Shown here: positions 10,168 through 64,000 of the stretch, piece by piece
Numbering within the stretch: position 1 is the first letter of the stretch
Layout of the letters: every line of letters begins with the position of its first letter
Assembly: GCF_041248615.1 (NCBI RefSeq)
Contig: NZ_CP158426.1
Length of the DNA: 64,000 bases
From: Escherichia coli
Lineage (GTDB): Bacteria; Pseudomonadota; Gammaproteobacteria; Enterobacterales; Enterobacteriaceae
Strand: one strand, 5' to 3'
Notes under the pieces: model-generated
Database searches by the model: none
What the model was told of the DNA's origin: nothing
The model's input: the letters and a program-made list of their open reading frames with translations, nothing else
Position numbers and translations under genes: made by a program

Positions 10168-10171
10168 ACAA

Positions 10172-13200: not shown

Positions 13201-13279
13201 TGCAGGTAACAAAGTATGACAGACCATTCAGCCAGTCAATGGTCTGTTACATACCTTTTACACTGTTTTACTTTGGCAA

Positions 13280-14266: not shown

Positions 14267-14344
14267 AACGCGTGGATACTCCATAAAGGGATTCTGTCGT
14301 CAATGTAGCACGCCTTTTTCATCTTCGACGTGCGCAGATACGCA

Positions 14345-15037: not shown

Positions 15038-15113
15038 GGTCGTTATCCTTAACGAAAGGGGGGAGGTCGATTTTAGGCGCTAAAGGAAGAAAAGATAACG
15101 CCTGACATCATTT

Positions 15114-34706: not shown

Positions 34707-34753
34707 TGGTGGCCCCTGCTGGACTTGAACCAGCGACCAAGCGATTATGAGTC
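34707..34753 (-). tRNA. ileX: 3'-terminal 47-nt fragment of a CAU-anticodon tRNA (ileX-type tRNA-Ile2); not a complete gene; candidate island att site
   Basis: Revcomp reads GACTCATAATCGCTTGGTCGCTGGTTCAAGTCCAGCAGGGGCCACCA (anticodon loop with CAU, T-arm, acceptor 3' strand, CCA); upstream sequence cannot pair as a 5' acceptor strand, so the gene is truncated at the anticodon stem. Confidence 0.7.
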
Positions 34754-34879
34754 ATGAGGCAAGTTCGTTCTATATTGTTTTTGTTTGTTCGTGATTGCTT
34801 TATTAGTTGTTTGTAATCAATAAATTATGTGATTTTCCCTGTCTCCGCTTGGTTCCGTTTTTTCTTCATTGTACGATCG

Positions 34880-34903
34880 TTACCTGACCCATTACCTGAC
34901 CCA
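34880..34903 (+). repeat. perfect tandem 12-bp direct repeat TTACCTGACCCA x2 (candidate integrase arm-type sites)
   Basis: Two adjacent identical copies about 50 bp upstream of the integrase start, inside the att-proximal region. Confidence 0.4.
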
Positions 34904-34949
34904 AAATCACGAGTTATTCTGATTGTTACTGGTTTAGAAAAGAGGTTCT

Positions 34950-45496: not shown

Positions 45497-45515
45497 TTTT
45501 TAATCCCGCTCACAA

Positions 45516-45554
45516 ATTCGAATCGTTTCGGTTGCTATCCGAAACGATTCGGAT
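45516..45554. promoter_or_regulatory. near-perfect 16-bp inverted repeat (candidate RafR operator pair) upstream of rafA
   Basis: ATTCGAATCGTTTCGG - 7 bp - CCGAAACGATTCGGAT, located 35-75 bp before the rafA start. Confidence 0.5.
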
Positions 45555-45589
45555 CAACAGTAAGGCATACCCGAAAACGGAGATGTCTT

Positions 45590-47716
45590 ATGGAACCGAT
45601 GTACCGCAGGCTGACCAGTCCCCACTCAGACCTGATTATTAAAACCCACCCGTATGCAGAGATTGTCTGGTGGGGATCCACCCTGAAACACTTTTCACCG
45701 GATGACTGTATCAGCCTGGAAAGGCCGGTTGCGAATGGTCGTCTGGATACCGACACCCCACTGACGCTGATGGCCGAAAACGGCGCGGGACTTTTTGGCT
45801 CGCCGGGGCTGGAGGGACACCGCAACGGGCTGGATGCGTCCCCTGTGTTCCGTACCATCAGCGTGGTACAGGCCGGAGAATCACTCACCCTGACCAGTGA
45901 GGATGCAGTGGCGGGTCTGCGCATGGTCAGTGAACTGGTGCTGACATCGTCCGGTGTGCTGAAGATGCGTCATGCCCTGACGAACCTCCGTGAAGGGGAC
46001 TGGCAGGTGAACCGCTTCGCCATCACGCTCCCTGTGGCTGAAAGGGCAGAGGAAGTCATGGCCTTCCACGGACGCTGGACTCGTGAGTTTCAGCCGCACA
46101 GGGTCCGTCTCACACATGACGGTTTTGTGCTGGAGAACCGCCGGGGCCGCACGTCCCATGAGCATTTTCCGGCACTGATTGCCGGTGCCCCCGGTTTCTC
46201 AGAACAGCAGGGCGAGGTGTGGGCCGTACATCTGGGCTGGAGTGGCAACCATCGCATGAAATGTGAGGTCAAAACTGACGGACGGCGTTACCTCCAGGCG
46301 GAAGCACTGTGGATGCCCGGAGAAAAAGCCCTGAAGAAGGATGAGACCGTGTACACGCCGTGGCTGTACGCCAGCTATTCCCCGGAGGGGCTCAATGGTA
46401 TGAGTCAGCAGTACCACCGTTTTCTGCGCGATGAAATCATCCGTTTTCCTGAGCAGAAACCCCGTCCGGTGCACCTCAATACCTGGGAAGGTATTTATTT
46501 TGACCACGACCCGAACTACATCATGCAGATGGCCGGACGTGCGGCAGCGCTTGGCGTTGAACGTTTCATTATCGACGACGGCTGGTTTAAGGGACGCAAT
46601 GATGACCATGCGGCTCTGGGCGACTGGTATCTGGATGAACAGAAGTATCCGGACGGACTGATGCCGGTGATTAACCATGTGAAATCACTCGGCATGGAGT
46701 TCGGTATCTGGGTGGAACCGGAAATGATTAACCCGGACTCTGACCTCTTTCGCCGCCATCCTGACTGGGTACTGTCAATGCCGGGGTACACACAACCAAC
46801 CGGGAGACATCAGTATGTTCTCAACCTGAACATTCCTGAGGCCTTTGCTTACATTTATGAACGCTGTTTATGGCTGCTGGGCGAACACCCAGTTGACTAT
46901 GTGAAATGGGACATGAACCGCGAGCTGGTCCAGGCCGGGCATGAAGGTCGGGCGGCGGCGGACGCGCAGACCCGTCAGTTTTACCGGCTGCTGGATCTCC
47001 TGCGCGAACGTTTTCCCCGTGTTGAGTTTGAGTCCTGCGCTTCCGGCGGTGGACGTATCGACTTTGAGGTTCTGACCCGCACGCACCGCTTCTGGGCTTC
47101 TGACAACAATGACGCCCTGGAGCGCTGCACCATACAGCGTGGCATGAGTTACTTTTTCCCGCCGGAGGTTATGGGGGCACACATCGGTCATCATCGCTGC
47201 CATGCCACCTTCCGGCAGCACAGCATTGCCTTTCGCGGTCTGACGGCCCTGTTCGGTCATATGGGACTGGAGCTGGATCCGGTAACGGCCGGAGAAGAGG
47301 AATCCGCCGGTTACCGCCGCTATGCCTCGCTCTACAAAGAATGGCGGCAGCTTATCCACACGGGCACCCTATGGCGGGTGGATATGCCGGATGCGGCGAC
47401 ACAGGTGCAGGGGGTGGTCAGCCCGGATCAGTCGCAGGCGCTCTTCCTGGTGAGCCAGCTTGCCATGCCGGATCACACCCTGCCGGGTGCTCTACGTTTT
47501 CCGGGGCTGGCACCACAGGCCCGTTACCGGCTTCGTGTTGTTGACCATCCGGATATTCAGCTGGTCGGTGAAGGCGGGCATACCATGCGCAGGCTGCCCG
47601 GCTGGATGAACCAGACCTCCGACATCAGTGGGGAATGGCTGGCGCAGGCCGGTATTCAGCTTCCCGTACTGGATCCGGAAAGCGCCATGCTGATTGCCCT
47701 TGAACGTTTGGCATAA
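45590..47716 (+). CDS. rafA: alpha-galactosidase (GH36), RafA-like
   Basis: 708 aa; size and context match raffinose-plasmid RafA. Confidence 0.85.
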   Translation: MEPMYRRLTSPHSDLIIKTHPYAEIVWWGSTLKHFSPDDCISLERPVANGRLDTDTPLTLMAENGAGLFGSPGLEGHRNGLDASPVFRTISVVQAGESLTLTSEDAVAGLRMVSELVLTSSGVLKMRHALTNLREGDWQVNRFAITLPVAERAEEVMAFHGRWTREFQPHRVRLTHDGFVLENRRGRTSHEHFPALIAGAPGFSEQQGEVWAVHLGWSGNHRMKCEVKTDGRRYLQAEALWMPGEKALKKDETVYTPWLYASYSPEGLNGMSQQYHRFLRDEIIRFPEQKPRPVHLNTWEGIYFDHDPNYIMQMAGRAAALGVERFIIDDGWFKGRNDDHAALGDWYLDEQKYPDGLMPVINHVKSLGMEFGIWVEPEMINPDSDLFRRHPDWVLSMPGYTQPTGRHQYVLNLNIPEAFAYIYERCLWLLGEHPVDYVKWDMNRELVQAGHEGRAAADAQTRQFYRLLDLLRERFPRVEFESCASGGGRIDFEVLTRTHRFWASDNNDALERCTIQRGMSYFFPPEVMGAHIGHHRCHATFRQHSIAFRGLTALFGHMGLELDPVTAGEEESAGYRRYASLYKEWRQLIHTGTLWRVDMPDAATQVQGVVSPDQSQALFLVSQLAMPDHTLPGALRFPGLAPQARYRLRVVDHPDIQLVGEGGHTMRRLPGWMNQTSDISGEWLAQAGIQLPVLDPESAMLIALERLA

Positions 47717-47770
47717 AAGGACCGGAGCCGGTCACGGCTCCCTGCACTCAGTCCCGTGAGGATAACAATA

Positions 47771-49048
47771 ATGAATACTGTCAGTACTCATAAAAACCCC
47801 GATTTCTGGATATTTGGTCTGTTCTTTTTTCTCTACTTTTTCATCATGGCAACCTGTTTCCCGTTTCTGCCCGTCTGGCTGTCAGACATTGTGGGGCTGA
47901 GTAAAACGGATACCGGGATTGTTTTTTCATGCCTCTCCCTGTTTGCCATCAGCTTCCAGCCGCTGCTGGGGGTCATCTCAGACCGTCTTGGCCTGAAAAA
48001 ACACCTGATGTGGATCATCAGCCTGCTGCTGGTCCTGTTTGCACCGTTCTTTCTGTACGTTTTTGCGCCGCTGCTGCGGTTCAACATCTGGGCCGGAGCA
48101 CTGAGCGGCGGGATTTTTATCGGCTTCGTTTTTTCTGCGGGAGCCGGTGCCATCGAAGCCTATATTGAACGTGTCAGCCGCAGCAGCGGATTTGAATACG
48201 GTAAGGCCCGGATGTTCGGCTGTCTGGGCTGGGCGCTGTGTGCCACCACGGCAGGGCTGCTTTTCAACGTGGATCCGTCCCTGGTATTCTGGATGGGGTC
48301 CGGCTGCGCATTGCTGCTGGTCCTTCTGGTGGCGCTGGCGCGTCCCGGAACCAGTCAGACAGCGATGGTCATGAATGCGCTGGGTGCCAACTCGCCCGTG
48401 ATTTCCGCCGGAATGGTGTTCAGTCTGTTTCGTATGCGTCAGATGTGGATGTTCGTGCTTTACATGATTGGGGTGGCCTGCGTCTATGACGTGTTTGACC
48501 AGCAGTTTGCCACGTTCTTCCGTGCATTTTTTGACACGCCGCAGGCGGGGATCCGGGCATTTGGTTTTGCCACCACGGCTGGCGAGATTTGCAATGCCAT
48601 CATCATGTTCTGCTCCCCCTGGATAATCAACCGCATTGGTGCCAAAAACACACTGCTTGTCGCGGGTCTGATTATGACCATCCGCATCACAGGGTCGGCC
48701 TTTGCCACCACGGCTACTGAAGTGGTGATCCTGAAAATGCTGCATGCCCTTGAAGTCCCATTCCTGCTGGTTGGTGCGTTCAAGTATATCACCGGCGTGT
48801 TTGATACCCGGCTGTCGGCCACCATTTATCTGATTGGCTTTCAGTTCTCCAAACAACTGGCGGCGATATTCCTCTCAACCTTTGCAGGTCACCTGTATGA
48901 CCGCATGGGGTTCCAGAACACCTATCTGGTTCTGGGCGGTATTGTCCTTGCGGTCACCGTGTTATCGGCTTTCACCCTGAGCAGTACCCGTAAAACGGCT
49001 GCCCCGTCAGCAGAAACCGCTACAGCACAGACGGAGGTTCGCTTATGA
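47771..49048 (+). CDS. rafB: raffinose permease (LacY-family oligosaccharide:H+ symporter), RafB-like
   Basis: Start at MNTVSTHKNPDFWIFGLFFFLYFF with GAGGA ribosome-binding site; LacY-like throughout. Confidence 0.85.
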   Translation: MNTVSTHKNPDFWIFGLFFFLYFFIMATCFPFLPVWLSDIVGLSKTDTGIVFSCLSLFAISFQPLLGVISDRLGLKKHLMWIISLLLVLFAPFFLYVFAPLLRFNIWAGALSGGIFIGFVFSAGAGAIEAYIERVSRSSGFEYGKARMFGCLGWALCATTAGLLFNVDPSLVFWMGSGCALLLVLLVALARPGTSQTAMVMNALGANSPVISAGMVFSLFRMRQMWMFVLYMIGVACVYDVFDQQFATFFRAFFDTPQAGIRAFGFATTAGEICNAIIMFCSPWIINRIGAKNTLLVAGLIMTIRITGSAFATTATEVVILKMLHALEVPFLLVGAFKYITGVFDTRLSATIYLIGFQFSKQLAAIFLSTFAGHLYDRMGFQNTYLVLGGIVLAVTVLSAFTLSSTRKTAAPSAETATAQTEVRL

Positions 49049-50475
49049 AACAGCGTCTTGCCTCTGCACAGGTTGCACTTGATACACTCCGCGCCCGTCG
49101 TGGTGATACCTGGTACCCGGTTTTTCATCTGGCTCCACCTGCCGGATGGATGAATGATCCGAACGGGCTTATTTATTTCAGCGGTCGCTATCACGCATTC
49201 TTTCAGCACCATCCGGCAAGTGAACATCAGGGGCCGATGCACTGGGGACATGCCACCAGTCCGGACATGCTGCACTGGCAGCATGAGCCGGTTGCGCTGG
49301 CACCCGGTGATGAATATGACCGGGATGGCTGTTTTTCCGGCAGCGCAGTGGACGACAACGGCGTGCTGTCGCTTATCTACACCGGTCATCTCTGTCTGGA
49401 GGATCGGGGGGATGACAGCATCATCCGCGAAGTCCAGTGTCTGGCAACCAGCCGTGACGGCATTCACTTTGAGAAACAGGGCTGCGTGCTGACGCCACCG
49501 GAAGGCATCATGCATTTCCGTGACCCGAAGGTCTGGCGGGAAGGGGGATACTGGTGGATGGTTATCGGCGCGCGGGATACCTCTGACACCGGTCAGGTGC
49601 TGCTGTATCGCGGCACATCCCTGCGGGACTGGCGCCAGGAACGGGTTCTAGCGCAGTCGGCAGCCGGAGAAAGCTATATGTGGGAATGTCCGGACTTTTT
49701 CCGCTGTGGCGACCATCACTGGCTGATGTTCTCCCCGCAGGGGATGACGCCCGGCGGATACCGGTTCCGCAACCGCTTTCAGAGCGGAGTTTTACCGGGT
49801 CACTGGCAGCCGGGGGCCGCCTTTGCCCTGAGCGGGGCATTTGAAGAACTGGATCACGGTCATGATTTTTATGCCCCGCAGTCCCTGGTCGCGGAGGACG
49901 GACGGCGCATCATCATGGCCTGGATGAATATGTGGGACTCCCCGATGCCTACAAAGCGTGAGGCCTGGGCCGGATGTCTGACCCTGCCGAGGGAACTTTT
50001 TGAACGCCATGGTCGTCTGTGTCAGCGTCCGGTTCGCGAAGCCGAATCCCTTCGCGGGACGTGCCAGCCGTTACACCCTGTAAGGCTCAGTGGCACGCAG
50101 TTGCTGGCTGAGGACGCACAGGCCGTGGAACTGGTGCTGACGTGGCATACCCTCGACAGTCAGGCAGAGCATTACGGCATCCACCTGGGAGACGGGCTCC
50201 GGCTGTATGTGGATAACCAGGCAGGACGGCTGGTGCTTTGGCGTCACTACCCGGATGAGGGGCTGGACGGTTACCGCAGTATCGCGCTGCCTGGCGCAGA
50301 ATATCTGACGCTACGGGTTTTCCTGGACCGTTCATCGGTGGAAGTGTTCGTTAACGATGGCGATGCCACCCTGTCCAGCCGTATTTACCCGCAGCCCGGA
50401 ACCCGCCGGTTGTCGCTATATGCAGCTCACGGCGAGGCTGTGCTGACGGACGGCTCACTGTGGACGCTGGCCTGA
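49045..50475 (+). CDS. rafD: GH32 invertase / sucrose hydrolase, RafD-like
   Basis: 476 aa; GH32 signature WMNDPNG near the N-terminus; start overlaps rafB stop by 4 bp. Confidence 0.85.
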   Translation: MKQRLASAQVALDTLRARRGDTWYPVFHLAPPAGWMNDPNGLIYFSGRYHAFFQHHPASEHQGPMHWGHATSPDMLHWQHEPVALAPGDEYDRDGCFSGSAVDDNGVLSLIYTGHLCLEDRGDDSIIREVQCLATSRDGIHFEKQGCVLTPPEGIMHFRDPKVWREGGYWWMVIGARDTSDTGQVLLYRGTSLRDWRQERVLAQSAAGESYMWECPDFFRCGDHHWLMFSPQGMTPGGYRFRNRFQSGVLPGHWQPGAAFALSGAFEELDHGHDFYAPQSLVAEDGRRIIMAWMNMWDSPMPTKREAWAGCLTLPRELFERHGRLCQRPVREAESLRGTCQPLHPVRLSGTQLLAEDAQAVELVLTWHTLDSQAEHYGIHLGDGLRLYVDNQAGRLVLWRHYPDEGLDGYRSIALPGAEYLTLRVFLDRSSVEVFVNDGDATLSSRIYPQPGTRRLSLYAAHGEAVLTDGSLWTLA

Positions 50476-50538
50476 AATAATTCCACTGCCGTCGGTGACG
50501 GCAGTACTTTCGGTTCACCCGTAATGAAGGAAAGCACA

Positions 50539-51054
50539 ATGGGATTACTGGGCAGGATTAAACAACTGATAAGTGAAAATGAGAAACCGGCGGAAGTCAC
50601 CCGCGTGATGGCACCGCTGTCCGGTGAAATTGTCCCTCTGGACACGGTTCCGGATGCTGTGTTTGCCGGGAAAATAGTGGGGGATGGTATTGCTATCCGT
50701 CCTTCCGGCGGCGATACCTTGATGGCTCCTGTCAGCGGCACTATCGGTAAAATACTGGAGACAAACCACGCGTTTTCCATCCGCACCGACAGTGGCACTG
50801 AACTGTTCGTGCACTTCGGTATTAACACAGTTGACCTCAGGGGAGAGGGTTTCCGGCGTATTGCCCAGGAAGGCCAGCTGATCAGCACCGGTGACCCCGT
50901 CATCGGGTTTGACCTTGCGTTACTTCAGCAGAAAGCACAGTCCACGCTGACACCGGTGATTGTGGCGGACTCTGACCGTGTCCAGGAGATAACCCTGTTC
51001 TCCGGCCCGGTCATCGCCGGAGAAACACCGGTTTTTGATATCAGCAGCCAGTAA
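50539..51054 (+). CDS. PTS EIIA(Glc)-like protein (Crr paralogue)
   Basis: 171 aa from MGLLGRIK (ribosome-binding site AAGGA 7 nt upstream); contains the EIIA-Glc core …KIVGDGIAIRPSG…GKILETNHAFSI…LFVHFGINTVDLRGEGF… including the two active-site His. Confidence 0.75.
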   Translation: MGLLGRIKQLISENEKPAEVTRVMAPLSGEIVPLDTVPDAVFAGKIVGDGIAIRPSGGDTLMAPVSGTIGKILETNHAFSIRTDSGTELFVHFGINTVDLRGEGFRRIAQEGQLISTGDPVIGFDLALLQQKAQSTLTPVIVADSDRVQEITLFSGPVIAGETPVFDISSQ

Positions 51055-51324
51055 GCGCCATGAGTGACAATATCGCCAGCGGGCAGCTGGTATCAGGGAA
51101 AGCCGCACATCTGGCCTGGTGCGGGCTGGTAGCCCTGCATCTGGCCCGCCGGGATGGCCGGATTGCGTCAAAAATCCAGGAAAACCTGTTTCTAAACCGC
51201 TGGCGGAGCACAGCACTGAAACAGCACCGTTTTCCCCGCACATATCAGAGCCCTGCAGAGTGAAAGCGGGGCGAAAGATATCCGCAGCAGGCTGGAGTAT
51301 CTGTGGCAGGCCTGCTCTGGTGAT

Positions 51325-51636
51325 GTGTCGGTACAGACTGACCTGTTCCGCCTGACATTCGCCCTGGAAACCATCAGGGAGCAGGGCTGGTGCTGGCGGA
51401 TACTGAGCGACCGGAAATGGGAGGGGCGTAATGTCGTGGTTCCGAACGGGGATGCCGGCAGCTTTTATCTTTCCCGCTCACGTCTTGAGGCGGCATTTGA
51501 TTATCAGGGGAGGTTGCTGCATCCCCTGACCGGCGATGTGTCTGCCCTCGCTGCCCTGCTCCGGAATGCGGGTTGGTATCCAATTCCAGCCGGAACCACG
51601 GATATGGCGATGTTTGAGCTGTCTGTCATCCGCTGA
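51325..51636 (+). CDS. hypothetical small protein (uncertain; possibly part of a decayed gene)
   Basis: 103-aa ORF with GTG start in a GC-rich stretch where all three plus frames carry 60-100-codon ORFs (51060-51263, 51119-51355, 51325-51636). Confidence 0.25.
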   Translation: MSVQTDLFRLTFALETIREQGWCWRILSDRKWEGRNVVVPNGDAGSFYLSRSRLEAAFDYQGRLLHPLTGDVSALAALLRNAGWYPIPAGTTDMAMFELSVIR

Positions 51637-51665
51637 ATATGACTGATGAAAATCATGGAGTATGA

Positions 51666-52592
51666 ATGAGTACAGTAAAAGTATGGGGTCTCGGTGATGC
51701 CGTGGTGGATTTATTACCGGAGAAGCCGGGCACGCTGTTGCAGTGCCCTGGTGGTGCGCCTGCCAATGTTGCCGTGGGCGTGGCCCGACTGGGGGGCCTG
51801 AGCGGGTTTGTCGGGTGTGTGGGGGATGACCCTTTCGGGCGTTTTATGCGCAAAACCCTGGCTGATGAGGGTGTGGACACGGCGTATATGCATACCGACC
51901 CTCTGTACCGGACTTCCACAGTGGTGGTGTCGCTGGTGCCGGGTGGTGAACGAACCTTCACATTTATGGTGCGCCCTTCGGCAGACCTTTTCCTTACCCC
52001 TGATGATTTACCGCCCTTTCGTGCCGGTGAATGGCTGCATACCTGCTCCAATGCCCTGAGTGCAGAGCCCTGCCGCAGCGCCACGTTTCAGGCCATGGAG
52101 AACATCCGGCAGGCTGGCGGCAGGGTCAGCTTTGACCCCAACATCCGGACTGACCTGTGGCAGAGCACATCGCAACTGCGTGAGTGTCTGCACCGGGCGC
52201 TCATGCTGGCGGATGTGGCAAAGGTATCGGAAGAGGAACTGTTCTTTATCAGCGGTGAACAGGATGTCCGGAAGGGAACCGATGTTCTGGCATCACATTA
52301 TCCCCTGGCACTGCTGCTGGTAACCCAAGGAAAGGATGGCGTGATGGCTCGCTGGCAGGGAAAAAACCTGTACTTCCCGGCAACACCGGTGGTGAGTGTG
52401 GACACGACCGGTGCCGGTGACGCCTTCGTGGCAGGTCTGCTGGCAGCGCTGGCGGCAGAGGGGATGCCCTCCGGTGAGCAGGCACTCGCATCCGTCATCG
52501 AACAGGCCCAGCGCTGTGGTGCGCTTGCCACGACAGCAAAAGGTGCCATGACAGCGTTACCCCGTCGCCAGGATTTACTGAAACACCCCTGA
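51666..52592 (+). CDS. scrK: fructokinase (ribokinase/pfkB family; ScrK/CscK-like)
   Basis: 308 aa; VLGDAVVDLL N-terminus and DTTGAGDAF ATP-binding motif. Confidence 0.85.
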   Translation: MSTVKVWGLGDAVVDLLPEKPGTLLQCPGGAPANVAVGVARLGGLSGFVGCVGDDPFGRFMRKTLADEGVDTAYMHTDPLYRTSTVVVSLVPGGERTFTFMVRPSADLFLTPDDLPPFRAGEWLHTCSNALSAEPCRSATFQAMENIRQAGGRVSFDPNIRTDLWQSTSQLRECLHRALMLADVAKVSEEELFFISGEQDVRKGTDVLASHYPLALLLVTQGKDGVMARWQGKNLYFPATPVVSVDTTGAGDAFVAGLLAALAAEGMPSGEQALASVIEQAQRCGALATTAKGAMTALPRRQDLLKHP

Positions 52593-52640
52593 CCGTTTCC
52601 TGCCCGTAACCGTTGTGCACGTCATTTTTGTTGCGGGTGA

Positions 52641-54188
<1,548 letters not shown>

Positions 54189-54424: not shown

Positions 54425-55217
54425 TCAGAAGTGACCGTCCAGGCGGTCACCGAACTCGATAATAAAGCGGCTCATTGCCATTCGCCAGTCCTTCAACGGC
54501 ATCGTCCATTTCTGGGACGCAGACTGGATTGCCAGCCACACCACTTTTTTCACCGAGTCGTCTGTCGGGAACACTTTACGCTTTTTGATCGCATGGCGGA
54601 TCACGCTGTTTAGCGACTCGATGGCATTCGTCGTATAGATCACTTTGCGGATGTCCGTTGGATAAGCGAAGAACGTGGCAAGATTCGGCCAGTTAGCCTG
54701 CCAGCTTCGGCTTATCTGAGGATAGCGACTGTCCCAGGCCGCAGCGAACGCTTCCAGTGCCTGCTGACCTGCCTCTTCCGTGGGAGCTTGATAAATCGCT
54801 TTCAGGTCGCGAGTGACGGCCTTGTAGTCCTTCCATGACACGAAGCGCAGGCTGTTGCGCACCATATGCACGATGCATAACTGGATGCGGGCCTTCGGAT
54901 ATACTGTGTTGATGGCATCCGGGAAGCCTTTCAGGCCATCCACACAGGCGATGAGGATATCGTTCAGACCGCGGTTTTTCAGTTCAGTCAGCACATTGAG
55001 CCAGAACTTCGCCCCTTCATTTTCGGCCAGCCACATACCCAGCAGTTCCTTCTGACCTTCGATATTGATGCCCAGTGCCAGGAACACCGATTTGTTGATG
55101 ACGCGACTGTCCTGCCGAACTTTCAGGACGATACAGTCAAGATAAACAATGGGGTAAACAGCATCCAGTGGTCTGTTTTGCCATTCTACAACCTGCTCCA
55201 TCACGGCATCGGTGACC
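54425..55217 (-). pseudogene. IS256-family (mutator-type) transposase, N-terminally truncated by IS3-family insertion
   Basis: Encodes only the C-terminal roughly 260 aa (…VTDAVMEQVVEWQNRPLDAVYPIVYLDCIVLKVRQD…); the frame runs open into the terminal inverted repeat of the neighbouring IS3-family element at 55218. Confidence 0.75.
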
Positions 55218-55271
55218 TGAGCCGCCCCGGGAATCCTGGAGACTAAACTCCCTGAGAAAGAGGTAAACAGA

Positions 55272-55598
55272 ATGACTAAAAATACTCGTTTTTCCCCCGA
55301 AGTCCGTCAGAGGGCGATTCGTATGGTTCTGGAAAGTCAGGGCGAATATGACTCACAGTGGGCGGCAATTTGTTCCATTGCCCCAAAGATTGGCTGTACA
55401 CCGGAGACTCTGCGTGTCTGGGTGCGCCAGCATGAGCGGGATACCGGAGGCGGTGATGGCGGGCTCACCACCGCTGAACGTCAGCGTCTGAAAGAGCTGG
55501 AACGTGAAAATCGTGAACTGCGCCGCAGTAACGATATCCTTCGCCAGGCTTCCGCTTATTTTGCGAAGGTGGAGTTCGACCGCCTCTGGAAAAAGTGA
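55272..55598 (+). CDS. IS3-family transposase OrfA (IS629/IS1203-like)
   Basis: 108 aa, [51 protein letters not shown]; HTH plus leucine zipper. Confidence 0.85.
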
Positions 55599-56012
55599 TG
55601 CCACTGCTGGATAAGCTGCGTAAGCTGTACGGGGTCGGACCGGTATGCAGTGAACTACATATTGCCCCGTCAACGTATTACCACTGTCAGCAACAGCGAC
55701 ATCATCCTGATAAACGCAGTGCCCGTGCGCAGCGCGATGACTGGCTGAAGAAAGAGATACTGCGCGTATACGATGGGAATCATCAGGTATACGGTGTGCG
55801 TAAAGTCTGGCGTCAGTTGTTACGGGAAGGAATCAGGGTAGCCAGATGTACAGTGGCGCGCCTCATGGCGGTTATGGGACTTGCCGGTGTTCTCCGGGGT
55901 AAAAAGGTCCGCACTACCGTCAGCCGGAAAGCCGTTGCCGCAGGCGACCGCGTAAACCGTCAGTTTGTGGCAGAACGTCCTGACCAGTTGTGGGTGGCTG
56001 ATTTTACTTACG
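55595..56012 (+). CDS. IS3-family transposase OrfB, 5' exon (interrupted by group II intron)
   Basis: Frame runs to …[10 protein letters not shown] then meets GTGTG at 56013; the ORF-track continuation [15 protein letters not shown] is intron read-through. Confidence 0.65.
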
Positions 56013-58761
<2,749 letters not shown>

Positions 58762-58799
58762 CCACTTCAGTGGGTGGTGGTGTTAAGAGCATGCGGTCT

Positions 58800-58935
58800 G
58801 CGTAAGAGAAAGGGGTGAGCATTTTACGCTGCTGTTGCTGCCGGATGCGGCTCGCGCCTTATCCGGCCTATAAATGAGCGTGAAACGCAGGCCTACAAAT
58901 GAGTGTGAAATGTAGGCCTGATAAGCGAAGCGCCA
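58800..58935. repeat. REP-like elements
   Basis: TGCCGGATGCGGCTCGCGCCTTATCCGGCCTA and GTAGGCCTGATAAGCGAAGCGCCATCAGG between the IS3-family end and the lactate module. Confidence 0.45.
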
Positions 58936-59142
58936 TCAGGAATAAGTGCCAGGTATTACACGCGGAAGTAGCGTGGTGGAATCAACGCGGAAAAGGCGTC
59001 GAACTTCTTCACCATCTTTTTCCAGAACAACATAACAACAATCCTCGATTTGAAACATCGGCGCTATTTTAGTCAGCGCCGACAAATCGTAAAGCCTGTC
59101 GCCTTGTTCCGTTTCTGGGGTGGTATAAACCTTTTTGGTCAC
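58936..59142 (-). CDS. hypothetical small protein (low confidence)
   Basis: 68-aa ORF co-directional with and 48 bp downstream of the lactate permease gene; no family recognised. Confidence 0.25.
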   Translation of the reverse strand: MTKKVYTTPETEQGDRLYDLSALTKIAPMFQIEDCCYVVLEKDGEEVRRLFRVDSTTLLPRVIPGTYS

Positions 59143-59190
59143 TGTGTCGTCAAATACGATTGCCGCGAATTTGACGGGGTTGACAATGGC

Positions 59191-60744
59191 TTACGCCATA
59201 AACCAGTAATAAAAGAGACCGACTTTCAGGCCAAGGATCACAATGTAGGCACAGCAGTATTTCATGGTGCCAGACATGATCTGATTGGCCTGACCGTCCA
59301 TTTTGGTGGCAGAAACCGCGATGGCGATGCTTTGCGGCGAAATCATTTTGCCCCCCGTAGCGCCAGAGGTATTGGCCGCCGCCAGCCAGTTGGGATCGAT
59401 ATGTAACTTGCTGGCAGCTATGGTTTGCAGCTTGCCAAACAGAATGTTCGAGTTGGTATCGCTGCCGGTAACGAACGTGCCCAGCGCGCCAATCACCGGG
59501 GCGAGGAAGACGTACGAGCTGCCGGTCAGATCGACAATCGACTGCGCCAGTGTGGAGATAATCCCGCTGAGATCCATCACCGTGGCCAGCGCGACGATCG
59601 CCATAATTGCCACGATAGAGTTTTTAAGCTGGAAAATCGTTTTGATAAATACTTCCAGCATCCCGCGTGCGGACGCTCCCTGAATAAAACCGCCGATAAT
59701 GGTCGCAAAGATAATCAGCATCCCTGGTGTGGTCACCCATTCAACTTTCAGTGCCATCGTTTTGCCGTCAGCCAACGTGAAATGCAGCACCGAAGCCAGT
59801 TGGGATGCCGCGCCTTTTATTGTCGGAAACAGCGGCGAACACAGCAGGATAAACACAAAAATAAACAGATAGATAGAGCCCACGCGGAACAACACTTTTG
59901 CCGAGCGCGGCGTGGTTTCGCGGGTATGGCTGACCTCAATGCGCCACTCTGGATCGGTTTTCCCTTTGCGCAGGCGACTGACCATCGCCACGGCAAACAG
60001 GCTGACCAGGCTACCGGCAAAAGCGGGTAATTCCGCGCCAAGATGGATGGCGACAAAATATTGCGGAATCAGCGTGGAAATGCCGCAAATCAACGTGATC
60101 AGAAATACGCCGCGAATGGCTTTCAGGCCACCGCCAATAATGCAGACAATCACAAACGGCAGCAGGATATTAAACAGCGCGAGCTGCAAAATAATGGTTC
60201 CGCCTAAGGTATAAACCGGCAGATTAACCTGCTCTGCCAGAATAGAAACCGGGATCCCAACCGCGCCAAATGCGGTCGGAACGGTATTTGCTACGAGGGA
60301 AGCAATCGCCGCCTTCAACGGGTTGAATCCCAGCGCAATGAGAATACCGATCGGAATAGCGACCGCCGTGCCATAGCCCGCAGCGGCTTCAAGAAATCCA
60401 CCAAAACACCATGAAATCAGCAGCACCTGAATACGCTTATCTTCGCTAATGCTGGCGAGAATATCGCGCAGAATATCCAGCGCTTTGGTCGCCTGCATGA
60501 CGTTATAACTGAAGATAGCGCCGAGGATAACAATTACGATCGGCCATAGTCCCTTCAGTGCACCATAGCCTATCGCGGCTTTCAAATTTTGTACGGGCAT
60601 TTCCCAGAATATTGCCGATAGTGCAGCGGTGAATACCAAAGAGATCAGTACGGAATAATGGATGGGCATTTTTAATTTCAGTATTAAAAATACCATCAGC
60701 AGCAAAGGAGAGAGTGCCAGAGCAAACATTAAATATTCGTGCAT
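59191..60744 (-). CDS. lactate permease (LctP family)
   Basis: 517 aa, highly hydrophobic multi-span protein with LctP-type segments; divergent from the Dld-like gene across a 430-bp AT-rich promoter region. Confidence 0.8.
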   Translation of the reverse strand: MHEYLMFALALSPLLLMVFLILKLKMPIHYSVLISLVFTAALSAIFWEMPVQNLKAAIGYGALKGLWPIVIVILGAIFSYNVMQATKALDILRDILASISEDKRIQVLLISWCFGGFLEAAAGYGTAVAIPIGILIALGFNPLKAAIASLVANTVPTAFGAVGIPVSILAEQVNLPVYTLGGTIILQLALFNILLPFVIVCIIGGGLKAIRGVFLITLICGISTLIPQYFVAIHLGAELPAFAGSLVSLFAVAMVSRLRKGKTDPEWRIEVSHTRETTPRSAKVLFRVGSIYLFIFVFILLCSPLFPTIKGAASQLASVLHFTLADGKTMALKVEWVTTPGMLIIFATIIGGFIQGASARGMLEVFIKTIFQLKNSIVAIMAIVALATVMDLSGIISTLAQSIVDLTGSSYVFLAPVIGALGTFVTGSDTNSNILFGKLQTIAASKLHIDPNWLAAANTSGATGGKMISPQSIAIAVSATKMDGQANQIMSGTMKYCCAYIVILGLKVGLFYYWFMA

Positions 60745-61174
60745 TACAATTCCCGATTTACTTTTTTAGACTGAGCTATATTTATGGGGAAGGAAGCTAC
60801 CTGAATAATAAAATAAAAAATGCTAACTGAATCGCTTCAGTGAAATAAAGTTATAAAGGTTAATAATTGTATAAATAATGTTATTTTTTTATTAAATATG
60901 AATAACCACTAAATATTACAACACCCATTAGAGTTAATCATTAATAGGTATGGGATGATCTTTGCAATAAATAAGTGTTTTGGCATCCCCTCAAAGGGCG
61001 AGGTATGAATTATATGGCGGTGGTAATTTCATTAAAAAATGTGAGCGGTACCGAAAGAAATAAAATGGGGTATTGCATGTGGATATTGATTGAGGGAATA
61101 TTCTGCTTTGTCATACAAATGAACTTATAGCCATTTTCACTGGCCCTGATATAAGGAGCGGAGAGCCGCCCTCC

Positions 61175-62872
61175 ATGAAACATACTGATAATAAGACCTT
61201 TTTGACGACTCTTACCCAATTGGTTGGCCCTGCTCATATCCTCACCGAACCGTCAAAAACTGCGTGTTACCGTAAGGGATTCCGCTCGGGTCAGGGTGAT
61301 GCTCTGGCGGTGGTTATCCCCGGCTCTTTGCTTGAACTCTGGAAAGTCCTCAGCGCCTGCGTTGAGGCTGATAAAATAATCCTGATGCAGGCGTCGAACA
61401 CAGGCCTGACCGAGGGTTCGACGCCAAATGGTAATGACTACGACCGCGAGATCGTCATTATCAGCACGCTGCGGCTGGACAGTCTGCATGTGCTGGATGA
61501 GGGCAAGCAGGTGCTGGCTTATCCGGGCACCACGCTGTACTCGCTGGAAAGGGCGCTGAAGCCGTTTGGCCGTGAGCCGCATTCGGTGATCGGCTCTTCG
61601 TGCATCGGCGCGTCGGTTATCGGCGGTATCTGTAATAACTCGGGCGGTTCTCTGGTCCAGCGAGGCCCGGCTTACACCGAGATGTCGCTGTTTGCCCGCA
61701 TTGATGAACAGGGACGCTTGCAGCTGGTCAATCACCTTGGCATTGAGCTAGGTCAGACGCCAGAGCAAATCCTTGCCCGGCTGGATAACAATGTGATTGA
61801 AGCCGCGCTCGTCAACCATGACGGACGTCACGCGCACGATCACGACTATGTTAGCCGCGTGCGGGACATCAATGCCGACACGCCAGCACGTTACAACGCT
61901 GACCCGGATCGCCTGTTTGAATCCTCTGGCTGCGCGGGCAAGTTAGCGGTGTTTGCCGTACGTCTGGATACCTTTGAAGCCGAGAAGAACCAGCAGGTCT
62001 TTTATATCGGTACCAATCAGACTGATGTCCTGACTGAGATTCGCCGCCACATCCTGGCGAATTTTACAAACCTGCCGGTTGCTGGGGAGTATATGCACCG
62101 CGATATCTATGATATTGCAGAGAAATACAGCAAAGATACCTTCCTGATGATCGACAAACTTGGCACGGACAAAATGCCGTTCTTCTTCAACCTGAAGGGG
62201 CGTACCGAGGCCATACTTGAGAAGGTGAAGATCTTTCGCCCGCACTTTACTGACCGCGCGATGCAGGCTTTTAGCCATCTGTTCCCGAGCCATCTCCCGG
62301 CGCGGATGAAGACCTGGCGCGATAACTATGAACACCATCTGATGTTGAAAATGTCCGGCGAGGGTGTGGCCGAAGCCCAGGCATGGTTAACGGACTATTT
62401 TAAATCGGCCGAGGGCGCGTTCTTTACCTGTACCGCGGAAGAGGGCAGTAAGGCGTTTCTGCATCGTTTTGCCGCCGCGGGTGCTGCCATTCGTTATCAG
62501 GCCGTTCATTCTGACGAGGTTGAGGATATTCTCGCGCTGGATATTGCATTACGCCGCAATGATACCGAATGGTATGAGTATTTACCTGCGGAAATTGACA
62601 GTCAGTTGGTGCATAAACTCTATTACGGCCATTTTATGTGCCATGTATTCCATCAGGATTATATCGTTAAAAAAGGCGTAGATGCCCACGCGTTAAAAGA
62701 ACAGATGCTGGAATTACTGCGCCAACGCGGAGCGCAATATCCGGCGGAACACAATGTCGGCCATCTGTATAAAGCGCCGGAAAATTTGGCACGTTTTTAT
62801 CAGGAAAATGATCCGACCAACACTATGAATCCAGGTATTGGTAAAACCAGCAAACATAAAAACTGGGCATGA
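61175..62872 (+). CDS. dld: FAD-dependent D-lactate dehydrogenase (Dld family)
   Basis: 565 aa; colinear with E. coli Dld (…YRKGFRSGQGDALAVV…PGTTLYSLE…VIGSSCIGASVIGGICNNSGGSLVQRGPAYTEMSLFARI…) but in a non-K-12 context. Confidence 0.85.
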   Translation: MKHTDNKTFLTTLTQLVGPAHILTEPSKTACYRKGFRSGQGDALAVVIPGSLLELWKVLSACVEADKIILMQASNTGLTEGSTPNGNDYDREIVIISTLRLDSLHVLDEGKQVLAYPGTTLYSLERALKPFGREPHSVIGSSCIGASVIGGICNNSGGSLVQRGPAYTEMSLFARIDEQGRLQLVNHLGIELGQTPEQILARLDNNVIEAALVNHDGRHAHDHDYVSRVRDINADTPARYNADPDRLFESSGCAGKLAVFAVRLDTFEAEKNQQVFYIGTNQTDVLTEIRRHILANFTNLPVAGEYMHRDIYDIAEKYSKDTFLMIDKLGTDKMPFFFNLKGRTEAILEKVKIFRPHFTDRAMQAFSHLFPSHLPARMKTWRDNYEHHLMLKMSGEGVAEAQAWLTDYFKSAEGAFFTCTAEEGSKAFLHRFAAAGAAIRYQAVHSDEVEDILALDIALRRNDTEWYEYLPAEIDSQLVHKLYYGHFMCHVFHQDYIVKKGVDAHALKEQMLELLRQRGAQYPAEHNVGHLYKAPENLARFYQENDPTNTMNPGIGKTSKHKNWA

Positions 62873-62946
62873 AATACGAATGAACATTTGTTTGATATCG
62901 CGATATCAAGCGCAATAAACAGAAATGAAGCAATGGAGTAGTTATT

Positions 62947-63666
62947 GTGAATGTAAATTTCTTTGTCACCTGTATTGGTGACGCACTGAAATCACGGATG
63001 GCACGAGACTCCGTATTGCTGCTGGAAAAACTGGGTTGTCGCGTTAATTTCCCCGAGAAGCAAGGGTGTTGCGGTCAGCCAGCCATCAACAGCGGTTACA
63101 TCAAAGAGGCGATCCCCGGGATGAAAAACCTGATCGCCGCGCTGGAAGACAACGACGATCCGATTATCTCCCCGGCGGGCTCCTGCACCTACGCGGTTAA
63201 AAGCTACCCGACGTATCTGGCCGATGAACCGGAATGGGCGCTGCGTGCTGAGAAAGTTTCCGCGCGTATGCAGGATCTCACCTCCTTTATCGTCAACAAA
63301 CTGGGTGTGGTGGACGTTGGTGCCAGCCTGCAGGGCCGCGCTGTGTATCATCCTTCCTGTAGCCTGACCCGCAAACTGGGAGTGAAGGAAGAGCCGCTTA
63401 CGCTGCTGAAAAACGTGCGCGGACTGGAGCTGTTGACGTTTGCCGATCAGGATACCTGTTGCGGCTTTGGCGGGACGTTCTCGGTCAAGATGGCCGAGAT
63501 ATCCGGTGAGATGGTGAAAGAGAAAGTATTACATCTGATGGACGCAAAGCCGGAATTTTTGATTGGCGCAGACGTTAGCTGCCTGCTGAACATTGGCGGT
63601 CGACTGCAACGGGAAGGCCAGCCGGTCAAAGTGATGCATATTGCTGAAGTGCTGATGAGCCGCTGA
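62947..63666 (+). CDS. lactate utilisation protein A (LutA/YkgE-like Fe-S oxidoreductase, CCG domains)
   Basis: 239 aa; two cysteine-rich CCG motifs (GCCGQPA…, TCCGFGG…). Confidence 0.85.
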   Translation: MNVNFFVTCIGDALKSRMARDSVLLLEKLGCRVNFPEKQGCCGQPAINSGYIKEAIPGMKNLIAALEDNDDPIISPAGSCTYAVKSYPTYLADEPEWALRAEKVSARMQDLTSFIVNKLGVVDVGASLQGRAVYHPSCSLTRKLGVKEEPLTLLKNVRGLELLTFADQDTCCGFGGTFSVKMAEISGEMVKEKVLHLMDAKPEFLIGADVSCLLNIGGRLQREGQPVKVMHIAEVLMSR

Positions 63667-63676
63667 GGGGAAAGAG

Positions 63677-64000
63677 ATGTCGATAAAAACCAGCGATGTA
63701 GAATTTAAACTGCGTATTCGTCAGCAGATAGAAGATCCGATTATGCGCAAAGCCGTGGCTAATGCGCAGGAGCGTATCGGCGCGAATCGGCAAAAAATGG
63801 TCGATGAGTTAGGCCACTGGGAAGAATGGCGCGATCGTGCCAGCCAGATCCGCGATCACGTTCTGAGCAACCTCGACGCTTACCTGTACCAACTCTCCGA
63901 GAAAGTGACGGAAAACGGCGGACACGTCTATTTCGCCAAAACCAAAGAAGATGCCACTCGCTACATTTTGCAGGTCGCGCAGAGTAAAAATGCGCAGAAG
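63677..64000 (+). CDS. partial CDS (3' end outside window): lactate utilisation protein B (LutB/YkgF-like)
   Basis: Starts 11 bp after the LutA-like stop with AGGGGAAAGAG ribosome-binding site; N-terminus MSIKTSDVEFKLRIRQQIEDPIMRKAVANAQERIG typical of YkgF/LutB. Confidence 0.8.
   Translation, partial: MSIKTSDVEFKLRIRQQIEDPIMRKAVANAQERIGANRQKMVDELGHWEEWRDRASQIRDHVLSNLDAYLYQLSEKVTENGGHVYFAKTKEDATRYILQVAQSKNAQK

What the first reader, a model, noticed from the sequence alone, without database searches (positions are those of the whole stretch)
58800..64000. Island-borne lactate utilisation module: permease, Dld-like dehydrogenase and LutAB-like genes, preceded by REP elements
A lactate permease gene is divergently paired with a Dld-family D-lactate dehydrogenase gene and followed by LutA(YkgE)- and LutB(YkgF)-like genes running off the window. 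In K-12, dld and ykgEFG are at separate loci far from ileX and neither is linked to a permease. So this is either a second accessory copy or a relocated, differently organised lactate locus. REP-like elements just upstream suggest the segment originated as chromosomal DNA of an enterobacterium, not phage or plasmid DNA.
Basis: partly seen in the sequence, partly recalled or inferred. Interest (0 to 1): 0.45.

Follow-up and report, generated by a model that had tools for sequence, protein, structure and literature searches.

The report
Extra lactate-use gene cluster from Citrobacter
This is an intact, horizontally acquired second set of lactate uptake and oxidation genes that came from a Citrobacter chromosome, also rides on many Klebsiella plasmids, and is ordinary accessory-metabolism cargo already noted in the literature.

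Summary
Window 58800-64000 carries REP elements, a small conserved ORF, an LctP-family permease (-), then dld, lutA and the start of lutB (+). lutB, lutC, a truncated gntP and ISKpn26 follow just past the window.

The window is E. coli NRZ14408. That chromosome also has canonical dld (pbpG/bglX) and ykgEFG (betA/rclR), so this is an extra copy, not a relocation. Protein identity to K-12 is 85.8% (Dld), 94.6% (LutA), 94.7% (LutB) and 85.7% (LutC). The permease is 33.6% identical to LldP.

The source is a 7.5-kb piece of a Citrobacter portucalensis-like chromosome (97.5% nt, REPs included), abutting an ISEc52 remnant. The same IS junction occurs on the two plasmids examined, and 142 mostly Klebsiella plasmids carry the module at about 98.7%. 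It is present in 107 of 5426 complete E. coli genomes, at ileX or pheU islands.

No regulator travels with it. A conserved palindrome upstream of dld matches the K-12 ykgE upstream region, suggesting control in trans, perhaps by YieP.

Gene content like this is already described (pFec10, ST127 islands). Interest is low.

The parts
58283..58769 (+). 3' remnant of an IS3-family ISEc52-like element. Its outer end at 58769/58770 is the left junction with Citrobacter-derived DNA.
   Evidence: 97.1% identical to the last 517 bp region of intact ISEc52 on Klebsiella plasmid p69-1. Homology to the Citrobacter chromosome starts at 58770. A group II intron 3' end (Rfam RF00029, 58196-58282) abuts it.
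58840..58935 (.). REP/BIME-like cluster: two inverted REPs plus a central stem at 58888-58920. It lies downstream of the permease/orf68 transcription unit.
   Evidence: Consensus matches at 58858-58870 (-) and 58913-58925 (+), against 0.04 expected by chance. Fold z = -4.0. Inverted repeat I3. Present in the native Citrobacter locus.
58936..59142 (-). orf68, a small conserved ORF (68 aa) downstream of the permease. Function unknown.
   Evidence: Found at the same position in Citrobacter loci at 74-96% aa identity and called as a gene in several assemblies. No Pfam or NCBIfam hit.
59191..60744 (-). LctP-family lactate permease (LutP-like, 517 aa). It is not an LldP or GlcA orthologue.
   Evidence: TIGR00795 406 bits against cut-off 341. 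LldP model 260 against 918, GlcA model 254 against 1121. 33.6% aa identity to K-12 LldP. 100% aa identity to the Citrobacter-like chromosome L090.
60745..61174 (.). AT-rich divergent control region. It holds the palindrome TTTGTCATACAAA at 61107-61119, 56 bp before the dld ATG (candidate GntR/FadR-type operator).
   Evidence: Sequence. The motif is identical in the K-12 ykgE upstream region and in all 10 Citrobacter loci scanned. The K-12 dld upstream region has TTGTTATACAA. Background rate is 0.029 per 480 bp.
61175..62872 (+). dld: FAD-dependent, quinone-linked respiratory D-lactate dehydrogenase (565 aa).
   Evidence: NF008387 1041 bits. Pfam PF01565 plus PF09330. PDB 1F0X 1139 bits, residues 2-564. 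85.8% aa identity to K-12 Dld and 98.6% to L090.
62892..62909 (.). Perfect 18-bp palindrome TTGATATCGCGATATCAA between dld and lutA. Role unknown; possibly an internal operator.
   Evidence: Also present in C. portucalensis A60.
62947..63666 (+). lutA/ykgE-like Fe-S subunit (239 aa, two CCG domains).
   Evidence: Pfam CCG 113 bits, 2 stretches. 94.6% aa identity to K-12 YkgE.
63677..64000 (+). 5' part of lutB/ykgF-like. The gene continues to window-equivalent 65104. lutC is at 65097-65792, the gntP fragment at 65842-66255 and ISKpn26 at 66505-67485, all beyond the window.
   Evidence: TIGR00273 125 bits on the first 108 aa. The full-length protein has LUD, 4Fe-4S dicluster and LutB_C domains. 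RefSeq annotation of the same record.

Best explanation
This is an accessory, horizontally acquired lactate uptake and oxidation module.

Origin. A 7.5-kb block (REPs, orf68, permease <> dld-lutA-lutB-lutC, and the 3' end of gntP) was cut out of a Citrobacter portucalensis-like chromosome next to an ISEc52 element. It then spread on conjugative Klebsiella-type plasmids and into tRNA-associated islands of E. coli. Here it sits in a roughly 48-kb ileX island.

Inferred function, from homology:
- The LctP-family permease imports lactate with a proton.
- Dld oxidises D-lactate to pyruvate and passes electrons to quinone.
- LutABC oxidises L-lactate to pyruvate.

The module would add transport plus both stereospecific dehydrogenases on top of the host's own lldPRD, dld and ykgEFG.

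Regulation. dld-lutABC is probably one operon driven from the ancestral lutA promoter region. No regulator travels with the module. A conserved GntR-type palindrome suggests control in trans by a core-genome factor, with YieP as the candidate.

What is shown and what is inferred. Shown: gene content, family membership, extra-copy status, donor lineage, shared junctions and distribution. Inferred: transport and enzyme activities, operon structure, and the regulator.

Extra copy:
- NZ_LT599825.1 has two places for dld and two for lutABC.
- The canonical loci were located directly.
- Divergence from K-12 proteins is 85.8% (Dld), 94.6% (LutA), 94.7% (LutB) and 85.7% (LutC) aa identity.

Donor:
- Window 58770-66255 aligns continuously at 97.5% with chromosome CP056293.1 (L090).
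- L090's flanks (uxuR-uxuB-uxuA-gntP on one side; a PfkB kinase, a Trp/Tyr permease and a beta-elimination lyase on the other) are collinear at 97.1% with C. portucalensis A60.
- Module proteins are 97.8-100% identical to those of L090.

Spread:
- 142 plasmids carry at least 80% of the query at about 98.7% identity. The 169 matching plasmid records are mostly Klebsiella, and most are typed conjugative.
- On p69-1 the module lies between pco/sil and ars, with an intact ISEc52 at the same junction.
- 107 of 5426 complete E. coli genomes carry it.
- The same gntP'/ISKpn26 right junction occurs in a pheU island of strain CX04.
- An independent IS1-flanked capture from a C. gillenii-like genome (96-99% identity) sits on the examined E. 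coli IncHI1B plasmid pF829-1.

Island status:
- An integrase and a 47-bp partial ileX copy mark one end, and full ileX marks the other.

Function by homology:
- E. coli YkgEFG behaves as a respiratory L-lactate dehydrogenase and Dld as D-lactate specific (PMC9701030).

Regulation:
- The dld upstream region is homologous to the K-12 ykgE upstream region and includes the TTTGTCATACAAA palindrome.
- The YieP ChIP-exo regulon is reported to include ykgE (PMC11340327, citing Gao 2018).
- The YieP-repressed rydC promoter contains ATTTGTATGATAAAT, a 14/15 match.
Against: - No expression or activity data exist for this copy.
- The simple promoter scan found no more sigma-70-like sites than in shuffled sequence.
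- The permease's substrate range is untested; LctP members also carry glycolate.
- L090 is identified as Citrobacter portucalensis-like from collinearity and identity with named Citrobacter genomes, not from its record title.
- The direction of transfer between plasmid and E. coli island is not resolved. The E. coli copies keep 32 bp more of gntP than the Klebsiella plasmid examined, so they do not derive from that plasmid form.
- The YieP link rests on one literature statement plus motif similarity.
Confidence: 0.85

Rival explanations
1. The locus is the strain's only dld/lutABC set, moved from its normal positions by rearrangement.
For: None found. It was only conceivable before copy number was checked.
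Against: Canonical dld and ykgEFG are both present in their K-12 contexts in the same chromosome. The island genes are 77.8% and about 83.6% identical in DNA to canonical E. coli genes. They are 97.5% identical to a Citrobacter chromosome.
Confidence: 0.01
2. The module is inert hitch-hiking cargo. It was dragged along by IS elements and plasmids, is silent or redundant, and gives no lactate-related benefit in E. coli.
For: - It is flanked by IS debris and a group II intron.
- The host already has lldPRD-type, dld and ykgEFG functions.
- In mouse colitis models, dld and ykgEFG mutants of E. coli MP1 showed no fitness defect (PMC9701030).
- Only about 2% of E. coli genomes carry the module.
- The dld CDS is deleted in C. 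portucalensis A60 and partly deleted in the IncHI1B version.
Against: - All five ORFs are full length and 97.8-100% identical to the native Citrobacter proteins.
- The block is conserved at about 98.7% across more than 140 plasmids in several genera.
- The orthologous locus was captured at least twice independently, from two Citrobacter species.
- Promoter-region elements are conserved.
Confidence: 0.12
3. E. coli acquired the block directly from a Citrobacter chromosome, independently of the plasmid-borne copies.
For: The E. coli copies retain 32 bp more of gntP than the Klebsiella plasmid form. They are slightly less similar to L090 (97.5%) than the plasmid copy is (98.3%).
Against: The ileX copy shares the exact ISEc52/Citrobacter junction at 58770, plus 487 bp of ISEc52, with both plasmids examined. 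This points to one capture event followed by secondary truncations. The pheU copy shares the right junction with the ileX copy.
Confidence: 0.15

Closest known systems
E. coli K-12 ykgEFG (LutABC/LldEFG-type L-lactate oxidase) and dld
   Same: Same protein families and domain sets. Identity to K-12 is 94.6% (LutA), 94.7% (LutB), 85.7% (LutC) and 85.8% (Dld). The promoter region upstream of ykgE is homologous and carries the same palindrome.
   Different: Here dld sits between that promoter region and lutA, and an intact LctP-family permease is divergently linked. In K-12, dld is at a separate locus and only a 72-bp fossil of the permease remains next to rclR.
Native Citrobacter freundii-complex chromosomal locus (gntP | lutCBA-dld <> permease-orf68-REP)
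   Same: Collinear and 97.5% identical over 7.5 kb with a C. portucalensis-like chromosome, REPs and orf68 included. The gene order with dld is also seen in C. gillenii.
   Different: In E. coli the block is cut at both ends, by an ISEc52 remnant on the left and by truncation within gntP followed by ISKpn26 on the right, and it lies in an ileX island. Most Citrobacter species representatives lack dld at this locus. A60 has a clean deletion that leaves the last 70 bp of dld.
Lactate utilisation cluster of plasmid pFec10 (Kamal et al. 2020, PMC7984374) and lutABC/lutP islands of E. coli ST127 (PMC9769692)
   Same: Same reported gene content (LctP permease, Dld, YkgEFG) and matching reported identity levels (Dld over 85%, YkgE 94% to K-12). 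The ST127 island is at tRNA-Phe next to hsdMSR, like the CX04 and NRZ14408 contexts.
   Different: Sequence identity with pFec10 could not be checked because it is a WGS record not held in the collections. Those papers did not trace the donor or the shared IS junctions.
lutP-lutABC operons of other Enterobacterales and B. subtilis lutABC/lutP
   Same: The permease of this subfamily is adjacent to lutABC in Kosakonia, Edwardsiella, Pectobacterium, Dickeya, Proteus, Serratia, Budvicia and Sutterella loci.
   Different: There the permease is co-directional and directly upstream of lutA, with no dld. Here and in Citrobacter it is divergent.

Membership tests
Dld (quinone-dependent D-lactate dehydrogenase, NCBIfam NF008387) | Whole-protein score above the curated equivalog cut-off | tested here: met
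   1041.5 bits against cut-off 391, covering profile positions 4-567 of 570.
Dld (quinone-dependent D-lactate dehydrogenase, NCBIfam NF008387) | N-terminal FAD_binding_4 domain plus C-terminal membrane-binding domain, full-length similarity to the solved E. coli enzyme | tested here: met
   PF01565 and PF09330 (492 bits). PDB 1F0X 1139 bits, residues 2-564.
Dld (quinone-dependent D-lactate dehydrogenase, NCBIfam NF008387) | D-lactate:quinone oxidoreductase activity | not testable with these tools
   Needs an enzyme assay or growth phenotype.
LutABC / YkgEFG / LldEFG L-lactate oxidation complex | LutA with two CCG cysteine-rich domains | tested here: met
   PF02754, 2 stretches, 113 bits.
LutABC / YkgEFG / LldEFG L-lactate oxidation complex | LutB with LUD domain, 4Fe-4S dicluster and LutB_C | tested here: met
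   PF02589 179 bits, PF13183 54 bits and PF11870 39 bits on the full-length protein from L001. The N-terminal 108 aa match TIGR00273.
LutABC / YkgEFG / LldEFG L-lactate oxidation complex | LutC with LUD domain; three genes contiguous in A-B-C order | tested here: met
   PF02589 105 bits. Gene order, with lutB and lutC overlapping, from the annotation.
LctP lactate permease family (TIGR00795 / PF02652) | Score above the family cut-off over the full length | tested here: met
   406 bits against 341.15. PF02652 420 bits.
LldP or GlcA orthologue (NF007740 / NF007249) | Score above the equivalog cut-off | tested here: not met
   260 against 918 and 254 against 1121. 33.6% aa identity to K-12 LldP. 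It belongs to the LctP family but to a different, lutABC-linked subgroup.
REP/BIME elements of Enterobacteriaceae | Imperfect palindromes matching the GCCKGATGCG...CTTATCMGGCCTA type, in inverted pairs, extragenic and downstream of a transcription unit | tested here: met
   Two inverted matches at 58858-58870 and 58913-58925 against 0.04 expected. Stable fold, z = -4.0. Located after orf68 and the permease. The consensus was recalled from general knowledge, not taken from a curated model.
tRNA-associated genomic island | Tyrosine integrase, tRNA gene at one end, and a direct repeat of the tRNA 3' part at the other | tested here: met
   Integrase at window 34950-36266. A 47-bp, 91.5% copy of the ileX 3' half lies at about window 34708-34754. 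Full tRNA (CAU) is at record 819124-819199.
Composite transposon | Two copies of the same IS flanking the cargo | tested here: not met
   The left flank is an ISEc52 remnant and the right flank is ISKpn26 (IS5 family) after about 200 bp of unrelated DNA. On p69-1 the right flank shows no ISEc52 sequence. Target-site duplications were not examined.

The most novel reading that the evidence does not exclude
The 13-bp palindrome TTTGTCATACAAA may be the operator of the orphan GntR/FadR-family regulator YieP.

The palindrome is conserved upstream of:
- the island dld;
- K-12 ykgE;
- Citrobacter lutA/dld;
- Kosakonia and Proteus lutP, in related form;
- K-12 dld and the YieP-repressed rydC promoter, as near-matches.

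If so, YieP would be the missing regulator of respiratory lactate oxidation, perhaps sensing lactate or pyruvate. That would explain why this module spreads between genera without a regulator of its own. It would also make E. coli's ykgEFG locus a decayed remnant of an ancestral permease <> lutABC unit that the island restores.
Probability: 0.3. Interest if true: 0.5.

Novelty: already known. Interest (0 to 1): 0.22.

Why it matters
Lactate is abundant in the inflamed gut, and respiratory lactate oxidation is a documented fitness factor for Enterobacteriaceae. A portable unit combining a transporter with both stereospecific dehydrogenases could give a modest colonisation advantage. It travels with metal-resistance regions on Klebsiella plasmids and sits in islands of E. 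coli genomes.

All components are well-known families, and clusters with the same reported gene content have been described. The main value here is a clean provenance: a Citrobacter chromosome, one IS-mediated capture, then plasmids and islands. A secondary value is a testable lead on regulation, the YieP-type operator.

Tried and rejected
- Phage carriage: no match in 50,697 phage records. A P1-type phage-plasmid vehicle was not supported in that collection.
- Composite transposon: rejected, because the flanking IS elements differ.
- IS fragment at 55272-56011: it is not the 5' half of the ISEc52 remnant. blastn finds no similarity to ISEc52 there, so the intron-flanked IS fragments are a patchwork.
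- LldR/PdhR-type boxes (TGGT-N3-ACCA) were considered by eye for the control region. The palindrome found is the TTGT-N3-ACAA type instead, and the K-12 lldP upstream region lacks it.
- Promoter and terminator consensus scans gave no enrichment over shuffles and were not used.
- The YieP operator sequence could not be found in the two papers read, so the link remains an inference.
- pFec10 itself could not be fetched to confirm sequence identity.
Full report
**What the window is**

The window is identical to E. coli NRZ14408 chromosome NZ_LT599825.1, positions 736001-800000. RefSeq annotation of that record could therefore be read alongside the sequence, including the 20 kb beyond the window end.

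**Checking the observation**

| Feature | Coordinates | Evidence |
|---|---|---|
| LctP-family permease, 517 aa | 59191-60744 (-) | TIGR00795 406 bits, cut-off 341; PF02652 420 bits |
| Dld, 565 aa | 61175-62872 (+) | NF008387 1041 bits, cut-off 391; FAD_binding_4 plus Lact-deh-memb; full-length match to PDB 1F0X |
| LutA/YkgE-like, 239 aa | 62947-63666 (+) | Two CCG domains |
| LutB | from 63677 (+) | Runs off the window |

- Beyond the window lie the rest of lutB (to 65104), lutC (65097-65792) and the last 137 codons of a gntP-family permease (65842-66255). About 200 bp of unrelated DNA and ISKpn26 follow.
- The REP elements are real. Two inverted copies of TAGGCCKGATAAG lie at 58858-58870 and 58913-58925, against 0.04 matches expected by chance in the window. 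The stretch folds far better than shuffled controls, z = -4.0.
- A 68-codon ORF at 58936-59142 (-) lies between the REPs and the permease. It is conserved at that position in Citrobacter at 74-96% aa identity but has no family assignment.

**Island status**

- No tRNA lies in the window.
- The module sits inside a segment of about 48 kb. One end has a tyrosine integrase (window 34950-36266) next to nfeF. The other end has a tRNA with anticodon CAU, annotated tRNA-Ile, next to mug/rpoD (ileX) at record 819124-819199.
- A 47-bp, 91.5% copy of the tRNA's 3' half lies just before the integrase.
- The island also carries a raffinose-type operon, IS fragments, a group II intron, a type I restriction system, an Ag43 gene and CP4-like toxin-antitoxin genes.

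**Copy number**

- With sensitive blastn, the NRZ14408 chromosome has two places for dld and two for lutABC.
- I located both canonical loci. dld is at record 1873573-1875288 between pbpG and bglX. ykgEFG is at 4133746-4136591 between betA and rclR. Both are arranged as in K-12.
- The island genes are 77.8% (dld) and about 83.6% (ykgEF) identical in DNA to canonical E. coli genes.
- Protein identity to K-12 is 85.8% (Dld), 94.6% (LutA), 94.7% (LutB) and 85.7% (LutC). The permease is 33.6% identical to LldP.

**Where it came from**

- A scan of one genome per species with the permease found 93-99% identical proteins on large chromosomal contigs of the Citrobacter freundii complex.
- An exact-protein look-up found a 4.92-Mb chromosome, CP056293.1 (L090), in which window 58770-66255 aligns continuously at 97.5%.
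- The native context in L090 is uxuR-uxuB-uxuA-gntP | lutC-lutB-lutA-dld <> permease-orf68-REP | PfkB-type kinase, Trp/Tyr permease, beta-elimination lyase.
- L090's flanks are collinear at 97.1% with C. portucalensis A60. I call it C. portucalensis-like on that basis, since its record title was not shown.
- The REPs are therefore native Citrobacter chromosomal REPs that were carried along.
- Most Citrobacter species representatives lack dld at this locus. In A60 the dld coding sequence is cleanly deleted, and the dld promoter region is fused to the last 70 bp of dld ahead of lutA. C. gillenii keeps dld there, at 91% aa identity.

**How it moved**

- The left edge of the Citrobacter DNA (58770) abuts the outer end of an ISEc52-like IS3-family element, of which only the last 487 bp remain here (58283-58769).
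- Exactly the same junction occurs on Klebsiella pneumoniae plasmid p69-1 (IncFIB/IncFII), there with an intact ISEc52. On that plasmid the module lies between the pco/sil and ars regions. The Citrobacter plasmid also examined shares the junction.
- In the plasmid collection, 169 records match and 142 carry at least 80% of the query. Identity is at least 95% in 140 of them.
- By genus, the 169 records are Klebsiella 122, Escherichia 35, Raoultella 8, Salmonella 2, Citrobacter 1 and Serratia 1. 116 of the 169 are typed conjugative.
- No phage record matches.
- In E. coli, 107 of 5426 complete genomes carry the module.
- Nine of ten contexts sampled by exact permease sequence are the same raf-IS-module arrangement. 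Most of these continue into ISKpn26 and hsdR.
- In strain CX04 the module lies in a tRNA-Phe island. It has the same gntP'/ISKpn26 right junction but an IS1-truncated left end.
- The Klebsiella plasmid form has 32 bp less of gntP than the E. coli forms. The simplest history is one capture followed by secondary truncations. The direction of plasmid/island exchange is unresolved.
- A second, independent capture exists. On the examined E. coli IncHI1B plasmid pF829-1 there is an IS1-flanked version, about 85% identical to ours. It derives from a C. gillenii-like genome (96-99% identity) and has a partly deleted dld.
- A third kind occurs in some E. coli, for example an O111:H8 strain. It is a co-directional permease-lutABC operon without dld, about 68% identical in the permease, next to a type I restriction system.

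**How it most likely works**

- By homology, the permease imports lactate, Dld oxidises D-lactate with electron transfer to quinone, and LutABC oxidises L-lactate.
- For the E. coli orthologues this stereospecificity has been shown by competition assays: Dld with D-lactate aerobically, and YkgEFG with L-lactate plus nitrate (PMC9701030).
- In most other Enterobacterales sampled, the permease subgroup sits directly upstream of lutABC in the same orientation. This supports a dedicated lactate-uptake role.
- All five ORFs here are intact and 97.8-100% identical to the native Citrobacter proteins.

**Regulation**

- No regulator gene is in the block.
- The 230 bp upstream of the island dld are homologous to the K-12 ykgE upstream region, not to the K-12 dld upstream region.
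- That stretch contains the palindrome TTTGTCATACAAA (61107-61119), which fits the GntR/FadR-type T.GT-N3-AC.A pattern.

| Location | Form of the motif |
|---|---|
| K-12 ykgE upstream | identical |
| All 10 Citrobacter loci scanned | identical |
| Kosakonia, Tenebrionibacter and Proteus, upstream of the permease | related |
| K-12 dld upstream | TTGTTATACAA |

- Background for this motif is 0.029 hits per 480 bp.
- The literature reports ykgE in the ChIP-exo regulon of the FadR-subfamily regulator YieP, whose ligand is unknown (PMC11340327, citing Gao et al. 2018).
- The YieP-repressed rydC promoter contains ATTTGTATGATAAAT over its -15 to -29 region, a 14/15 match to the ykgE palindrome.
- I infer, without direct evidence, that the module is controlled in trans by a conserved core-genome regulator, with YieP as the candidate.
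- The same alignment implies that dld sits just downstream of the ancestral lutA promoter region, so dld-lutABC is probably one operon.
- An 18-bp perfect palindrome (62892-62909) between dld and lutA is unexplained.

**A side result on K-12**

A 72-bp fragment at the 3' end of rclR (NC_000913.3 321069-321144) matches permease residues 334-358. Identity is 80% aa (tblastn E = 7e-7) and 78% nt (blastn E = 2e-11). It lies on the strand divergent from ykgE, as in Citrobacter. The K-12 ykgEFG locus therefore looks like a decayed version of a permease <> lutABC unit.

**Comparison with what is known**

- All parts are members of well-characterised families (see the membership table).
- A cluster of an LctP permease, Dld (over 85% to K-12) and YkgEFG (YkgE 94%) was described on E. 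coli plasmid pFec10. The authors remarked that the reason for acquiring a second ykgEFG is unknown (PMC7984374).
- lutABC with lutP next to hsdMSR in a tRNA-Phe island was reported for E. coli ST127 (PMC9769692).
- I could not fetch pFec10 to confirm sequence identity.
- The donor lineage, the shared junctions, the K-12 permease fossil and the operator link were not mentioned in the passages of those papers that I read.

**Verdict**

The finding is real and correctly read. It is an ordinary accessory metabolic module of known kind. Interest is low (0.22). The only lead with some reach is the possible YieP operator.

Noticed in passing
K-12 locus L096 3070-3145 (NC_000913.3 321069-321144): A 72-bp fossil of the lutABC-linked permease (residues 334-358, 80% aa identity) overlaps the 3' end of rclR on the strand divergent from ykgE. 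blastn detects it in many E. coli genomes.
   Followed up: partly
window 61107-61119; L096 3479-3491; L095 3126-3136; L103 1022-1036: The palindrome TTTGTCATACAAA is shared by the island dld upstream region, the K-12 ykgE upstream region and all 10 Citrobacter loci scanned. Near-matches occur upstream of K-12 dld and in the YieP-repressed rydC promoter. It may be the YieP operator.
   Followed up: partly
window 62892-62909: A perfect 18-bp palindrome TTGATATCGCGATATCAA lies 38 bp upstream of lutA. It is conserved in C. portucalensis and absent from the K-12 ykgE upstream region. Role unknown.
   Followed up: no
L005 9420-10000 (C. portucalensis A60): The dld coding sequence is cleanly deleted, leaving its promoter region fused to the last 70 bp of dld ahead of lutA. 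Presence of dld at this locus is polymorphic among Citrobacter.
   Followed up: yes
window 54425-58769: A patchwork of mobile-element debris.
- A truncated IS1414 (IS256-like) transposase gene.
- An IS3-family 5' fragment with an ALIL frameshift pseudoknot (55553-55669).
- A group II intron with an intact reverse transcriptase (56669-58192; domain V-VI at 58196-58282).
- An ISEc52 3' remnant.
The two IS3-family fragments are not halves of one element.
   Followed up: partly
window 44486-54188: A raffinose-type operon lies on the same island. It comprises a LacI-like regulator, alpha-galactosidase, an MFS permease, a GH32 invertase, an EIIA-Glc homologue, a PfkB kinase and a LamB-type porin.
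   Followed up: no
window 1-4762: A CS1/CFA-type fimbrial operon (chaperone, major subunit, TcfC-like usher, CfaE-like tip adhesin) is inserted between exuR and exuT. GC is low here (0.41-0.47).
   Followed up: no
L098 (E. coli plasmid pF829-1, IncHI1B) 8251-15501: An independent IS1-flanked capture of the orthologous locus from a C. gillenii-like genome (96-99% identity). Its dld is partly deleted, and it lies next to a narZYWV nitrate reductase operon.
   Followed up: partly
L106 (E. coli O111:H8 chromosome) 6100-10553: A third accessory type: a co-directional permease-lutABC operon without dld (permease about 68% nt identity). It is flanked by a type I restriction system, a group II intron and an IS91-rmtE1 region.
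   Followed up: no
L105 (E. coli Nissle-type chromosome) 8950-9459: A truncated fragment of a related lactate permease (71.5% nt identity) lies in the sat/iha pathogenicity island among IS debris that includes ISEc52. Similar short fragment matches occur in many other E. coli genomes.
   Followed up: no
window ~34708-34950 and L001 39051-39068: The integrase lies at the island end far from the intact ileX, next to the partial tRNA copy. An 18-bp repeat, ACCCATTACCTGACCCAA, occurs just inside both island ends. This may indicate tandem or rearranged islands.
   Followed up: no
window 58936-59142: orf68 is a 68-codon ORF conserved downstream of the permease in Citrobacter (74-96% aa identity). 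It has no Pfam or NCBIfam family.
   Followed up: partly
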